Of a stretch of DNA of 64,000 bases, positions 6,520 to 59,970 are shown piece after piece (the first letter of the stretch is position 1; every line of letters starts with the position of its first letter). The translations under genes and the position numbers were made by a program. The notes below the pieces were generated by a model. That model was not told the DNA's origin. It did not search any database and worked only from the letters and a program-made list of their open reading frames with translations. The DNA comes from Eledone cirrhosa (Eukaryota), in contig OZ024748.1 in NCBI GenBank assembly GCA_964016885.1, forward strand, positions 33,790,001 through 33,854,000, written 5' to 3'.

Positions 6520-7178
6520 ATGGAGGACATTAAACAGTTGGACATTTCTAACGCCACTATTTCTACCAATATAGACACAGTTACACAGACATACAGTGGT
6601 GAAATATGTAGGAAATATTTTGCTTCTAACAGTAATTTAACTGTATACAAAAGAACACATACTCGTGAAAAACCTTTAAATGTGAAATATGTGGGAAATC
6701 TTTCAGTGAGAGAAGTAAGCTTGTTGGGCATATACGTAGTCACACCGGAGAAAAACCTTTACACTGCAAAATATGTGGGAAATCTTTTGACAATAACAGT
6801 AATATGATTAAACACAAAAGAAGACATACTGGAGAAAAACCCTATCATTGTGAAATATGTGGAAAATCTTTCTCTGAGAATGTTAGTCTTGTAGTTCACA
6901 AAATAACACACAGCAGAGAGAAACCTTTTAAATGTGAGAAATCTTTTGCCACTAGCAGTCATTTAACTCTCCACAAAAGAAAACATACTGGAGAGAAACC
7001 TTTCCATTATGAAATATGTGGAAAATATTTTGCCACTAACAATAATTTAACTGTACACAAAAGAATACACGCTGGAGAAAAAAACCCTTCAACTGTAAAA
7101 TATATGAGAAATCTTTTACAGAGAACACTGACCTGGTTGACCATGTATGCAGCCACACTGGTAAAAACCCTTTTGTAA
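6520..7178 (+). pseudogene. Frameshifted C2H2 zinc-finger gene (~7 fingers)
   Basis: N-terminus MEDIKQLDIS is paralogous to 31499; repeated [15 protein letters not shown] split over ORFs 6520-6807 and 6804-7178, with lost Cys/His residues. Confidence 0.85.
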
Positions 7179-22515: not shown

Positions 22516-23186
22516 CATCAGAAAATGAATTATCTACACGTAAAAGAACACACACTAAAGATAAACCCTATCACTGTCAAATATGTGAGAAATCTTTCCC
22601 TTCGAAATCCAATCTTGTTACTCTAACTGGAGAAAAACGTTTCCACTGCGAAATATGTGGGAAAGCTTTTGCTGAACATTTTAGTGTTGTACTTCATAAA
22701 AGAACACACTCTGGAGAGAAACCCTAACATTGTGAAATTTGTGGGAAATCTTTTGTGACAAGCATTTATTTAACTGTACATATAAGAACACACACTGGAG
22801 AGAAACCATTTCATTGTGAAATATGTGGGAAATCTTTCTTTCAGAATGCTAGTCTTATTAACCATAGATATAACCACACTGCAATAAAGCCCTTCCATTG
22901 TGAAATATGTGAGAAATCTTTTATCAGGGGCAATGACTTGATTAGACGTAAAAGAACTCACACTGGAGAGAAACCCTTTTACTGTGAAATATGTGGGAAG
23001 TATTTCGTACAAAGTGGTAATTTGATTGTACATAAAAGATCACATACTGGTGAAAGACACTGTGAAATATGTGGGAAATCTTTTATTAGGAATAGTAATT
23101 TAAATAAACACAAACAAACACACACAAGAGGGAAACATTTAACTAACTCTTCCTCTTACAAATCTAAACTGATTGTCATGAAGTAA
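22516..23186 (+). pseudogene. C2H2 zinc-finger pseudogene lacking its N-terminus
   Basis: About 7 fingers; in-frame TAA (ccctaa ~22723-22728); a deletion in finger 2; ORF 22755-23186. Confidence 0.85.
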
Positions 23187-23289
23187 TTCTTAGAAGTTCC
23201 ACAGACTCGAAAAGTTGCTTGTCATTTTTAAAATTATACACTTAGAAATAAATTCTTGTTCATATCCTAATCTTTTGCTACGAGTTGTG

Positions 23290-23600
23290 ACATGACTAAA
23301 CACAGAACACACACTGGAGAGAAACCCTATCACTGTAAAATATGTGGGAAATCTTTTGGCTGTAATGGTGAATCGACTAAACACAGAGGAACACACACTG
23401 GAGAGAAACCCTTCCACTGTGAAATATGTGGGAAATCTTTCTCTGAAAATTTTAGTGTTGTAGTTCACAAAAGAACACACATTGGAGAGAAACCTTTCAA
23501 AGGTGAAATATGTGGGAAACCTTTCGTCACTAAAAGTAACTTAAATAAAGACAAAACACTGGAGGGAAACGTTTTAACTGTGAAACACGAGACACCTTCC
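23290..23600 (+). pseudogene. Duplicated C-terminal zinc-finger block
   Basis: [33 protein letters not shown] closely matches fingers 6-8 of 31499-32302. Confidence 0.8.
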
Positions 23601-31498: not shown

Positions 31499-32302
31499 AT
31501 GGAGGACGTTAAACACTTGGACATTTCTACCACACCTGTTTCTACCAATACAGATACACTTACAGAGATATACAGTGGTGAGAAACCTTTACCTAGTGAA
31601 ACATGTACTGAAAAAGGATCATTATACAGAAATATTCCTGAATATAGCTGTGAGATTTGTAGGAAAACTTTCTCATCAGAAGATAAATTATCTACACACA
31701 AACACATACATATTAAAGACAAACCCTATCATTGTGAAATATGTGGGAAATCTTTTGCTAAAACAACTCATCTTCATGAACACATAAAAAGTCACACAGG
31801 AGAGAAACCTTTTCATTGTGAAATATGTGGGAAATCTTTCAGCCAAAATGCCAATTTGATTAGGCATATACGTAGTCACAGTGGGGAAAAACCATTTCAC
31901 TGTGAAATCTGTGGGAAATCTCTCGCCGAGAAAGCTAAACTTGTTAGACATATACGTATTCACACCGGAGAGAAACCTTTTCACTGTGAAACATGTGGGA
32001 AATATTTTGCTGATAGTGCTGCACTTATAGTTCACAGAAGAACACACACTGGAGAGAAACCCTATCAATGTGAAATATGTGGGAAATATTTTGTAACAAG
32101 CAGTCATTTAACTAAACATAAAAGAACACACACTGGAGAGAAACCCTTCCACTGTGAAATATGTGGGAAATCTTTCTCTGAAAATTTTAGTGTTGTAGTT
32201 CACAAAAGAACACACACTGGAGAGAAACCTTTCAAATGTGAAATATGTGGGAAATCTTTTGTCACTAAAAGTAAGTTAAATAAACACAAAAGAACACACT
32301 AA
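31499..32302 (+). CDS. Tandem C2H2 zinc-finger protein, 267 aa, 8 fingers
   Basis: Uninterrupted ORF with eight CxxC-x12-HxxxH fingers and TGEKP-type linkers; Kozak-like attATGG; candidate acceptor tatcttcAG at ~31470. Confidence 0.88.
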   Translation: MEDVKHLDISTTPVSTNTDTLTEIYSGEKPLPSETCTEKGSLYRNIPEYSCEICRKTFSSEDKLSTHKHIHIKDKPYHCEICGKSFAKTTHLHEHIKSHTGEKPFHCEICGKSFSQNANLIRHIRSHSGEKPFHCEICGKSLAEKAKLVRHIRIHTGEKPFHCETCGKYFADSAALIVHRRTHTGEKPYQCEICGKYFVTSSHLTKHKRTHTGEKPFHCEICGKSFSENFSVVVHKRTHTGEKPFKCEICGKSFVTKSKLNKHKRTH

Positions 32303-49902: not shown

Positions 49903-50535
49903 TAATATAGATCAGTTTTATAAACATATATTGACATACCCTTAAAGAATGCGACCATGTCGGTTGTAAGCGCCCGGATAGTATATACCTCTTCTCCTCT
50001 CATTGGTCAGTTGTTAGAACATTCCTCAGTCAAAAGACTGAGGAATGTTCTAACAACTGACCAATGAGACGAGAAGAGGCCCTTTGACGTTGAAATTCGT
50101 TTGTTTAAATTCATATGATTCCAGTTCCTCAGTGAAATAACAACCCAACCAGGAACTGGGCATATCAAAGTACTGATATTGATTTGATTATCAATATTAG
50201 TGTTATTGGGCACCCACTGAAGAATTATAAGAGCCCACTTGAATAAGCATCTGTTGATCTTATACAAGCTTCTGCATAAATTGGTATAATTTCTCCCAAA
50301 TTTGTAAGAATCTTATAATGAAGCGAGACGTCTGGGAAGAGATATATTTGATATATCTCATATGAAATAATACAGCCAATTTTCCACACAATACAATTAG
50401 TTAGCACCCCGAACGTTTAATTAGGAATATACTCACTTATTTCCTAATGTTTGTTGAGTGAGTTGGGATTTGGCCGGAGTATCGCTAAAAGCTTCCTCCG
50501 ATAATGTATTTATTTATATATATATATTTGTAGAT

Positions 50536-50878
50536 GGAGGCACATGGCTTAGTGGTTAGAACATTGGCCTTGCAATCGAAAGGTTGTGAGTTCAATTCTC
50601 AGACCCGGTGATGTGTTGTTTACTTGAGAAAGACACTTTATTTCACATTGTTCCAGTTTACTCAGCTGTAGAAATGAGATGCTAGGGACTGGTGACTCTA
50701 TCATTCCACTGCAAAGTGGTCGTGGAGGTGCCATGGCAAAAAAGCACCCAGCACTCACTGAAATGAGGTTGGTGTTAGGAAGGGCAACCAGCTGTAGAAA
50801 TCAAGCCAGAATCAATCTCGTCCTACCCTTGCAAGCAGGTAAAAGCGGATGTAAAAAATGATGATGATGATGATGATG
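50536..50878 (+). mobile_element. tRNA/CORE SINE with RTE tail (sister of 45664-46005)
   Basis: Colinear with the 45664 copy and ends in (gat)n; tail-only copies at ~49256-49335 and ~54133-54295. Confidence 0.88.
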
Positions 50879-50896
50879 TATATGTATATATATATA

Positions 50897-51648
50897 TATA
50901 TGAGTATGTACACGTACATACATATATGTATACAGACGTACAGTAGTATGTTTATATATATATATACATACAAACACACATATATATATGTACGTATGGA
51001 TTCACCGAACATTTATACAGGATGTTTGTTTACAAACACACCGAGCATTATCATAAATGTTCGGTGAATCCATACGTACATATATATAAGTGTGTATGTA
51101 TGTATATATATATACATACTACTGTACGTCTGTATACATATATGTATGTACGTGTACATACTTATATTTAAGTAACAGCTGTACTAAGAGTGGGAAATGA
51201 AATTTCGTTTCATTTTTTCCGTTTATCGTTTTCGGTGCACCCGGCCGATTAACCCACTCAATATGCAAATTGGGCTACTCAGCCGTTAATATGCATAAGG
51301 TAAGTACATACGTTCAACAATCTGGCAGGAAGGTATACGTTGCTGACGATAGCTAATAAGCTTGAAACTAGTACAGCGTTCCTTTGTCAGTGTTGAACAA
51401 ACGAGCAACGATGGTTGCTATACACTACGGCTTAATACGGGATGTTTGTTTACAAACACACCGAGCATTATCATAAATGTTCGGAGAATCCATACGTACA
51501 TATATATATGTGTGTATGTATGTATATATATATATACATACTACTTTACATATGTATACATATATGTATGTACGTATACATACTTATATTTAAGTAACAG
51601 CTGTACTAAGAGTGGGAAATGAAATTTCGTTTCATTTTTTCCGTTTAT
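50897..51648 (+). mobile_element. Non-coding retrozyme/Penelope-like element: inverted partial copy + 1.5 tandem 420-bp units
   Basis: ggatgtttgtttacaaacacacc at 51020 and 51440; ~50897-51016 is the reverse complement of ~51053-51166; hammerhead inside; flanked by (TA)n. Confidence 0.8.
51337..51379 (+). ncRNA. Minimal type I hammerhead ribozyme, intact core
   Basis: acgttg CTGACGA t agct-aata-agct t GAAA ctag TA cagcgt; ACTAGT palindrome in stem III; predicted cleavage after GUA (51373). Confidence 0.85.
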
Positions 51649-51740
51649 ATATATATATATATATATAAATATGTATATGTATATATATATACATATATAT
51701 ATATATGTATATATATGTATATATGTATATATATGTATAT

Positions 51741-51796
<56 letters not shown>

Positions 51797-51859
51797 GTAT
51801 ATATATATACGTATATATATGTATGTATATGTATGTATATATACGTATGTATATATATG

Positions 51860-51890
<31 letters not shown>

Positions 51891-51937
51891 GTATATATAT
51901 ATGTATATATATGTATATATATATATGTATATATATG

Positions 51938-51970
<33 letters not shown>

Positions 51971-52039
51971 GTATATATATATATATGTATATATATATGT
52001 ATATATATGTATATATATATATATATATGTATATATATG

Positions 52040-52072
<33 letters not shown>

Positions 52073-52170
52073 GTATATATATATATATGTACATATGTAT
52101 ATATATATATATGTATATATATATGTTTATATATATGTATATATAAATATATATGTATATGTATATATAT
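51646..52170. repeat. (TA)n/(TATG) microsatellite
   Basis: Directly visible. Confidence 0.97.
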
Positions 52171-52308
52171 TGCAGAACTTATGTGTAAAATAAACACACC
52201 CGTACTGTGTATTCCTTGTGACAGTATCTTGTTAGCTCAATGTATGAAAACAGAGCCGTTATAGTAAGAGAAAACAAAGAGCGCTTATATCATCAATCAA
52301 TTTTTCTT

Positions 52309-52355
52309 CGCTGACAGTGTTTCATCCATACCATGGGGCAGGACTCATAAGAGCG
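52309..52355 (-). ncRNA. Hammerhead motif with one core substitution (CUUAUGA)
   Basis: Minus strand: cgct CTTATGA gtcc-tgccccatggtat-ggat GAAA cactg TC agcg; stem I extends via ttttca/aagaaaa. Confidence 0.65.
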
Positions 52356-53390
52356 TGAAAACAAAAATACAATAATGAAGATAAGCTCTACCGACCTACA
52401 TCATAAGAACAATAGATATATGGTACAGGATCATAGGATAATAGTGAGAATGGAGATGATACATAAGGTTGTCAGTCAGAGTAAGGAAAAATAAGTAATC
52501 ACACAAGAGATAGATGCATGTTAAGGAATCAGTCAAGGCAATAAAGAAAAAAGAAAGAATACTAAAAAATATATAAAAAAATAAAAAATAAAAAATAATA
52601 ATAATAATTAATTAAACAATAGTTAAAAAAATAGTTTTAAAAAAAAATAATTTAAAAATAATAAAAAATTTAAAAAGATACTAAAAAATATATATATTAA
52701 AAAAAATATATATATTAAAAATATATAGAAAAAAATTATATTAAAAACATATTAAAAAGATAATAATTAAAAATAATAAAAAAAAATAAAAAAAATATAA
52801 ATAAATAAAAAAATAAAAAAATGGAAATTAAAAACTAATTAAAAAATATATATTAAAAAATAATTAACAAGAGACAAGGGAAGGTATAGATGCATATGAG
52901 GTCACACAAGCGCAAGGAGAGGAAGCTTGCATTGGTCACAGTCAAATAGATATAGGCAAGATGATTTCCTATGACAAAAAGTCTTGTGTCCTATAGTTTC
53001 ACAGGGTGAGCCACAGTGCACTCGAATGTTACAGTTGTCGAAGTAGGGATATCGAGCAGATAAATTTACGATATGACTAGGCATCCATCGGGGTGTCATA
53101 TAGAGAAGTGCCATTTAGCTCTTAAAGGTTCAGAGGGGATTTAGTATTCTCCAAATTCAGCATGGTTAGGGTAACCATAAGATATTGTAGTTGTGCGGAT
53201 AAGAGATCTTGCATAAGGATGGGTACAGCACAGGCAGAAGCAGGAACACAAGCAAAGCAGGGTAAGTGTATAGAAGAAGCTGAAGCAGTCAATTCACAAC
53301 GAGAAATTCATAACAGACAGTTCATACATGGTTTAAACAATGTTTGAGGCATATCTGGCAAGGGGAACAAAAAACATATATCGTTTTTTG

Positions 53391-53439: not shown

Positions 53440-53632
53440 ATAGGAACGAGTAGGACCCCGACGGCTGAGCTCAAGCCGTTTCGACAGTTAATTCTGGACA
53501 GAATTAGCCGTCGAAACGGCTTGAGCTCAGCCGTCGGGGTCCTACTCGTTCCTATTACCCACTCTACTACCCTAAGTATTGAGTACTTTGGTGCATTATG
53601 GTCCACCTGGTTCCTTACCACATTTCCTTCGT
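53440..53632. mobile_element. Fold-back element (57-bp arms) containing the 3' half of a hammerhead; deleted sister copy at 47506-47610
   Basis: Palindrome 53440-53555; right arm reads gtc GAAA cggct-tgagctc-agccg TC ggggtcc; (TA)n on both sides. Confidence 0.7.
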
Positions 53633-55536: not shown

Positions 55537-55845
55537 CATAAATATATTCCCATATCATACATACATAGATATATATTTACTCATGCAATTACGGGTGGTT
55601 GTGTACCTTGCCTTTAGTCATTAACGCATAAACCTAAGGAAGCTAAAACATTAAAAGGTAAAAGATAAGCATGAATGCATATAATAGGGGAAGGGGTACT
55701 AACAAATGTTACTCTATATAGAATTATAGTGAGTTGCTATTTAGAATATTTAATTAGGTTTATAGTATTTAAATGTTCTTCGTATACGGTGATTACAAAC
55801 TATAATCAGTTCCTGTCTTTTATTTAATTTTAAATAACTATTTAA

Positions 55846-59970
<4,125 letters not shown>

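What the first reader, a model, noticed from the sequence alone, without database searches (positions are those of the whole stretch)
50897..51648. 420-bp retrozyme-like unit: inverted head, 1.5 tandem copies and an intact hammerhead
Seen: a direct repeat with period ~420 bp (51020 vs 51440, second copy ending ~51648). A ~120-bp inverted copy of the unit's start precedes it, an intact HHR lies at 51337-51379, there is no ORF, and (TA)n flanks both sides. The unit starts and stops away from the cleavage site, i.e. it is circularly permuted. Established: metazoan non-LTR retrozymes are tandem units of a few hundred bases that produce circular RNAs, and inverted 5' partial repeats typify Penelope insertions. 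Inference: an insertion copied from a ~420-nt circular RNA template by a Penelope RT.
Basis: partly seen in the sequence, partly recalled or inferred. Interest (0 to 1): 0.8.

Follow-up and report, generated by a model that had tools for sequence, protein, structure and literature searches.

The report
Hammerhead retrozyme with paired unequal ends
This is one of thousands of copies of a 420-base non-coding mobile element carrying a hammerhead ribozyme motif, likely spread by a Penelope-type reverse transcriptase, and its two-armed insertions nearly always pair one long with one short end, which suggests both DNA strands likely prime copying at two different fixed sites on the same RNA.

Summary
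The stretch is one copy of a high-copy (5,424 exact ribozyme cores), non-coding 420-bp tandem element with a type I hammerhead whose helices covary across three sister families: a new non-LTR retrozyme family, likely moved in trans by Penelope-like (PLE) RT/endonuclease into (TA)n. Its ends are not random permutation points: 3' ends fall at two fixed sites 59 nt apart (the PLE 'tail'); 5' ends are scattered. In head-to-head insertions such as this one, 58 of 61 classifiable cases pair one long with one short end; a sister family (5 of 5) and coding PLEs (4 of 4) do likewise. In 22 of 48 pairs the short arm cannot be read from the long one, against fold-back copying, yet the arms share source variants. 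Best model: both target strands prime reverse transcription at two fixed sites of one RNA source. A circular template is about even odds: 40 of 65 arms read through the cut site and neighbouring monomers are mostly alike, but some arrays are mixed. No RNA data; no parent PLE found. The window copy has one ribozyme only and is probably a dead end.

The parts
50879..50897 (.). left (TA)-rich flank, following a (GAT)n run; likely the target microsatellite
   Evidence: sequence
50898..51016 (-). inverted arm, unit u34-u148; outer end at the fixed short (S) 3' site, no tail
51015..51016 (.). head-to-head junction; 2-nt overlap (AT) if 51019 is a CpG decay of the unit's u420
   Evidence: sequence; inference
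51015..51648 (+). main arm: u416-420, one full monomer and u1-207; ends at the fixed long (L) 3' site
51020..51439 (+). full 420-bp monomer (37% G+C, non-coding)
51168..51226 (+). internal copy of the 59-nt tail between S and L sites, with a predicted 12-bp hairpin at about 51192-51218
51263..51270 (+). octamer motif shared with sister family 2; possible promoter element (untested lead)
51312..51398 (+). predicted long stem enclosing the ribozyme
   Evidence: fold
51337..51379 (+). type I hammerhead motif; helix I 51337-42/51374-79, core 51343-49, helix II 51351-62, palindromic helix III 51367-72; predicted cut 51373/51374
51440..51648 (+). second, partial monomer (u1-207)
51590..51648 (+). 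terminal tail (59 bp), present at this end only
51649..52170 (.). right (TA)n flank, about 520 bp

Best explanation
This is a two-armed insertion of a high-copy, non-coding, hammerhead-bearing 420-bp tandem element (a non-LTR retrozyme), likely made when a Penelope-like RT/endonuclease cut both strands of a (TA)n run and likely primed reverse transcription from each strand at a different fixed site of the same RNA source. Shown: family size, tandem structure, two fixed 3' ends 59 nt apart, TA targets, scattered 5' ends, long/short pairing, shared variants between arms, ribozyme covariation. Inferred steps: (1) tandem copies are transcribed; two neighbouring ribozymes pair through their palindromic helix III and cut out monomers, which host ligase would close to circles; (2) a PLE protein, probably a dimer, binds the tail region in trans; (3) one DNA strand starts at the L site (u207), the other at the S site (u148), each with 3-5 nt of TAT/TATAT match to the target; (4) each cDNA stops at a random point, here after 634 and 119 nt, running through the cut site on a circle (about even odds) or an uncleaved multimer; (5) the two cDNA ends are joined head to head through microhomology and filled in. 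The window copy, with one ribozyme, would not release a monomer by itself.
For: 5,424 exact ribozyme cores, control 0; top 40 of 1,408 candidates 97-100% identical. Of 209 arms, 88 end exactly at u207 and 66 at u148; the same two ends with TA appear as loose ends in public contigs and 2,433 and 3,476 times genome-wide. TA of 6+ nt follows 84 of 97 L ends and 67 of 81 S ends. Pairing: 17 of 17 by position lists (P 3.5e-6); 48 of 49 classifiable of 67 junctions; 10 of 12 in a set picked without regard to ends; 58 of 61 pooled, p 1.6e-14 against 0.5. Sister family 5 of 5, coding PLE family A 3 of 3, PLE L113 1 of 1 by eye. Short arm not contained in the long arm in 22 of 48. Arms of one insertion differ at 51 of 366 polymorphic sites against 37% for arms of different insertions; shared rare variants 48 vs 4.7 expected. 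24 of 67 junctions overlap by 1-5 nt. Ribozyme: 96.9% of cells paired, 11 of 16 pairs change on both sides. PLE ORFs with RT and GIY-YIG abundant. PMC11167929: a PLE protein, predicted dimer, cuts and extends both strands and starts at two internal sites that define the tail.
Against: No RNA evidence could be obtained. No PLE whose pLTR is homologous to the unit was found in 40 GIY-YIG loci (one had a neighbouring diverged retrozyme copy), so the partner is unidentified. Exceptions: 1 L/L and 2 S/S; 18 of 67 junctions and 7 could not be classed; 40 of the 121 loci were picked on a long end, so S/S was impossible there; one pair is a local duplicate and one L arm is 25 bp inside a self-complementary hairpin. 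Mixed neighbouring monomers (L048 11 of 26, L156 11 of 24 polymorphic sites; L010), ABAB arrays (L046, L082) and a heterogeneous 55.8-kb array do not fit a monomer circle. The test of which monomer each arm copied was uninformative (9 vs 7). In PMC11167929 initiation was not homologous to the cut DNA, start sites did not differ between strands, and ribozyme cutting was dispensable in vitro. The covariation set is 8 hand-picked sequences from 3 families, so few independent events; Rfam finds no hammerhead.
Confidence: 0.7

Rival explanations
1. Same family and same PLE machinery, but the template is always a linear, uncleaved multimer transcribed from existing arrays; no circle is used and long arrays grow at the DNA level.
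For: Mixed neighbours and ABAB or 4-mer higher-order repeats; 55.8-kb array with monomers 5-10% apart; uncleaved RNA was the dominant substrate for PAc (PMC11167929); 8 of 9 Xenopus dimers did not cleave in vitro (bioRxiv 10.64898/2026.07.22.740005).
Against: Neighbouring monomers differ at only 71 of 552 polymorphic sites vs 37% at random; L023 has four identical monomers and an identical opposite arm; the two window copies share a variant seen in 3 of 270 sequences; the ribozyme fold is kept across families. None of this excludes homogeneous linear sources.
Confidence: 0.4
2. The inverted head is made by fold-back (self-priming) of the first cDNA, and the long/short difference comes from later endonuclease resolution or TA-microhomology trimming rather than from two priming events.
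For: In the window copy the short arm is contained in the long arm and the junction lies beside a native hairpin; 26 of 48 pairs are contained; self-priming and EN resolution are the published guesses (PMC3846280, PMC8557442).
Against: 22 of 48 short arms cannot be read from the long arm; the long-ended arm is the longer one in only 21 of 48; passive trimming would leave many L/L pairs (1 of 61 seen).
Confidence: 0.12
3. The unit is merely the pLTR stump of a 5'-truncated coding PLE.
For: The architecture (inverted 5' part, partial tandem, one-sided tail, ribozyme) is that of coding PLEs in this genome.
Against: In the 121 + 39 family loci mapped, monomers join monomer to monomer in arrays of up to about 130, 1,850 tails read on into the unit itself, and no similarity to the PLE family A pLTR (score 32 vs shuffled 29). 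One chimeric junction to a PLE ORF end (L214) is in the wrong order for a pLTR.
Confidence: 0.07
4. A DNA-level repeat (satellite, MITE or Helitron-like) whose ribozyme-like motif is chance.
For: Large satellite-like arrays exist; no Rfam hit.
Against: Fixed 3' ends with scattered 5' truncation, TA targeting, the same architecture in RT-coding PLEs, and compensatory changes in all ribozyme helices.
Confidence: 0.02

Closest known systems
Metazoan non-LTR retrozymes (Cervera and de la Pena 2020, PMC7229834; Li et al. 2026, bioRxiv 10.64898/2026.07.22.740005)
   Same: Non-coding tandem units of a few hundred bp, low G+C, type I hammerhead with weak palindromic helix III, thousands of copies, PLEs in the same genome; U.U at the base of helix II as described for axolotl HHR_Amex2.
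   Different: A new family; circles and cleavage not shown here; pLTR parent not found. Those papers (parts read) do not describe inverted arms or fixed paired ends.
PLE insertions with inverted pLTR and one-sided tail (Arkhipova et al. 2013, PMC3846280; Craig et al. 2021, PMC8557442)
   Same: [quoted passage not shown]
   Different: No ORF; tail is 59 nt rather than 30-40; the one-end rule is counted here (58 of 61) and the arms are shown to be independent copies from a shared source.
PAc Poseidon PLE in vitro (Frangieh et al. 2024, PMC11167929)
   Same: Two internal RT start sites bounding the tail; both target strands cut and extended; AT-rich target; predicted dimer.
   Different: PAc showed no strand difference in start site and no homology to the cut DNA; here genomic pairs are anti-correlated and both sites end in TAT.

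Membership tests
non-LTR retrozyme | short tandem unit of about 150-450 bp, dispersed and in arrays | tested here: met
   420-430-bp monomers, dimers to about 130-mers
non-LTR retrozyme | type I hammerhead in each unit | tested here: met
   motif and fold, covariation, 5,424 exact cores; no Rfam hit
non-LTR retrozyme | non-coding, G+C under 50% | tested here: met
   (37%)
non-LTR retrozyme | at least two consecutive ribozyme-bearing units ('active' copy of Li et al.) | tested here: met
   met for the family (L021, L023, L046, L082); not met by the window copy, which has one ribozyme
non-LTR retrozyme | target-site duplication longer than 4 bp when present | tested here: inconclusive
   both ends lie in (TA)n; no empty site found
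non-LTR retrozyme | self-cleavage and circular RNA in vivo | not testable with these tools
   no RNA run was listed
non-LTR retrozyme | co-occurring PLEs; homology to a PLE pLTR | tested here: inconclusive
   PLEs present; no homologous pLTR among 40 loci sampled from 10,596 candidates
autonomous Penelope-like element | ORF with RT and GIY-YIG between pLTRs | tested here: not met
   no ORF in the unit; monomers join monomers
PLE-type insertion | 5' truncation, inverted 5' arm, one-sided tail, microsatellite target | tested here: met

The most novel reading that the evidence does not exclude
A Penelope RT dimer loads on one small ribozyme-made RNA circle and starts the two target strands at two obligatorily different sites, then rolls round the circle from both; this 'partitioned twin priming' would be the general origin of the PLE inverted arm and one-sided tail, and thousands of retrozyme copies record it.
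Probability: 0.35. Interest if true: 0.75.

Novelty: new member of a known kind. Interest (0 to 1): 0.52.

Why it matters
The element class is known, so the copy itself is not surprising. Its value is as a natural experiment: how PLEs make inverted arms and a one-sided tail is named as an open question (PMC8557442), and who mobilises animal retrozymes and whether circles are the template is unproven. A short, young, high-copy family gives countable predictions: long/short pairing near 95%, independent arms, one RNA source. These can be tested directly in the published PAc assay and with a 420-nt RNA.

Tried and rejected
Rfam: no hammerhead. RNA: no RNA holder listed; four contig runs of unknown kind were laid, one may be the assembly's own sample. 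An apparent pile-up of 5' ends at u318-328 vanished in loci not picked on the ribozyme (1 arm in u316-330): selection artefact; the pile at u1-15 follows my query boundary. No pile-up at the cut site. Parent search: GIY-YIG scan and 40 loci, a second Pfam family not in the library, 36 tail read-through loci: no parent. Empty-site search failed because the right flank is itself a repeat. Phase test of arms uninformative. Octamer as promoter: shared by two families but not more conserved within the family than background; the newt satellite-2 promoter precedent is recalled and was not found in the library. One fetched region (L089) was the wrong contig and held no copy. Earlier scan notes had nothing for this genome or sequence.

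Full report
Observation. Self-comparison gives a 217-nt direct repeat at 95.4% (51012-51226 vs 51432-51648) and an inverted copy at 50898-51016. With u1 = 51020, the main arm is u416-420 + u1-420 + u1-207 and the inverted arm is u34-u148. The hammerhead at 51337-51379 folds with helices I and II, has a palindromic helix III, a U.U pair at the base of helix II and a predicted cut at 51373/51374. Rfam does not detect it (0 hits at gathering score; no hammerhead among 123 weak hits). There is no ORF. The monomer folded as a circle is 71% paired, z -7.7 against 40 shuffles, much of it from TA-rich self-complementarity.

Family. The genome is 3.0 Gb; the window lies at G000:C8. A 271-bp probe gave 1,408 candidates, the 40 scored being 97-100% identical. 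The 35-nt ribozyme core occurs 5,424 times, reversed control 0. I mapped 121 loci (128 held; 7 left out as duplicates, satellite or tangled) and 40 more stretches. Copies run from stubs of 40 bp to a 55.8-kb array. Two sister families turned up: a 465-nt unit homologous over its length (score 179 vs 28 shuffled) and a 310-nt unit alike only around the ribozyme. On 8 hand-picked ribozymes from the three families, 96.9% of cells pair and 11 of 16 pairs change on both sides, above all shuffles but one and all slid controls; the independent events are few. Two cores co-fold through helix III, the dimer form described in PMC4209133.

Ends. Of 209 arms, 88 end exactly at u207 (long, L) and 66 at u148 (short, S); with TA following, these ends occur 2,433 and 3,476 times, and both appear as loose ends in public contigs (possibly the same sample). 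TA runs follow 84 of 97 L and 67 of 81 S ends. 5' ends are scattered with no pile-up at the cut site; 40 of 65 arms picked on the long end read through it.

Pairing rule. From position lists on the first 87.9 Mb of C1 (65 L and 100 S ends), 17 of 17 head-to-head neighbours within 6 kb were L with S. From sequence, 67 junctions gave 48 L/S, 1 L/L, 0 S/S and 18 unclassifiable (these overlap the 17; 40 loci were picked on an L end). A set picked on tail read-through gave, read by eye from the BLAST map, 10 L/S, 2 S/S, 1 ambiguous and 6 unclassifiable. Pooled 58 of 61, p 1.6e-14. The window copy follows the rule. So do the 465-nt family (5 of 5), coding PLE family A (3 of 3), PLE L113 (by eye) and even the 55.8-kb array. 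In 22 of 48 pairs the shorter arm cannot be read from the longer, against fold-back copying as the general cause, though the window copy alone is compatible with it. The two arms nevertheless share a source: 51 of 366 differences at polymorphic columns against 6,670 of 18,157 between insertions; 48 shared rare variants against 4.7 expected. Junctions: 24 of 67 overlap by 1-5 nt, 8 by 8-27, 7 blunt, 28 with 1-36 extra bases.

Circle or multimer. For a circle: neighbouring monomers differ at 71 of 552 polymorphic sites, share 28 rare variants against 2.2 expected; L023 has four identical monomers and an identical opposite arm; the two window copies share a variant found in 3 of 270 sequences. 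Against a monomer circle as the only template: L010, L048, L066 and L156 have mixed neighbours, L046 and L082 alternate A and B, L084 has period four, and monomers of the 55.8-kb array are 5-10% apart, which points to multimeric templates and DNA-level growth. Homogeneous linear sources would mimic a circle. I put the circle at about even odds for this copy. With one ribozyme, the window copy could neither dimerise in cis nor release a monomer.

Partner. The genome has 10,596 GIY-YIG candidates; fetched loci hold several PLE families, some with long ORFs carrying RT and GIY-YIG matches, pLTR ribozymes with palindromic helix III (a U3-A8 variant in family A) and TA-ended two-arm insertions. Clade names for them (Neptune-, Poseidon-, Hydra-like) are my recall, not tested. 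None of 40 loci has a pLTR homologous to the unit. L214 joins the end of a family B endonuclease ORF directly to a retrozyme arm with a few bases of match, the other arm being family B: a template switch or an insertion with deletion; one case, a lead only.

Literature seen. bioRxiv 10.64898/2026.07.22.740005: parts 1-3 of 5. PMC11167929: parts 1-2 of 4; three supplement files searched without hits, its figure S2 on genomic ends could not be seen and may bear on the pairing rule. PMC4209133: parts 1-2 of 4. PMC7229834: passages and parts 3-4 of 6. PMC3846280 and PMC8557442: passages. The one-sided tail is stated qualitatively in the last two. Searches listed no paper that counts the pairing or proposes two-site twin priming, but older subscription papers on Penelope are not in the library.

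Verdict. A real, well-formed member of a new non-LTR retrozyme family with PLE-type integration: known kind. The added value is the counted long/short pairing with independent arms from one source, which turns an open mechanistic question into a direct test. Interest 0.52.

Noticed in passing
G000:C1:96983278-97039030 (L216, L217): A 55.8-kb array of about 130 monomers that still has a short-ended inverted arm on the left and a long end on the right; monomers 5-10% apart. A retrozyme insertion grown into a satellite, and a possible source locus.
   Followed up: partly
L172-L185 (e.g. L173:735-1210): Sister retrozyme family, 465-nt unit, canonical G-C at helix II, GUC cut, homologous tail hairpin and octamer, same long/short rule; 442 candidates.
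   Followed up: partly
L049:1-1500, L062:1000-1650: Third retrozyme family, 310-nt unit, similar ribozyme, two ends about 30 nt apart, head-to-head arrays.
   Followed up: partly
L214:471-1940: Chimeric two-arm insertion: family B PLE arm, family B endonuclease end, then 1.5 retrozyme units; possible template switch naming the partner.
   Followed up: partly
L111:455-6300: Near full-length young PLE (family A, copies 97% identical) with pLTR-ORF-pLTR, U3-A8 hammerhead variant and a tail of about 65 nt.
   Followed up: partly
window 52171-53370 (minus strand): Another repeat (1,933 candidates) ending in the same (TA)n, with two alignment start points about 90 nt apart and a hammerhead motif, decayed here and intact in other copies: likely another PLE-type end.
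   Followed up: partly
window 53440-53630; L060:2960-3140; L031, L135, L173 flanks: TA-flanked element with a long near-perfect hairpin, found next to or fused with retrozyme arms several times; class unknown.
   Followed up: no
window 50535-50878: SINE-like element with tRNA-like head and (GAT)n tail just upstream (recalled resemblance; ARAGORN finds no tRNA).
   Followed up: no
window 55842-57522: Fragments of a PLE ORF similar to those in L031, L090 and L115.
   Followed up: no
window 6599-7117, 22695-23556, 31717-32299: 84-bp period arrays that read as C2H2 zinc-finger exons; host gene cluster.
   Followed up: no
L132:712-830: A long-ended retrozyme arm joined head to head, without TA, to the end piece of a different PLE-type family: possible mixed-template insertion.
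   Followed up: no
L036, L206, L220 5' junctions: Apparently single-armed copies carry tiny inverted long-end arms of 12-35 nt, in L036 repeated, suggesting abortive starts on the second strand.
   Followed up: partly
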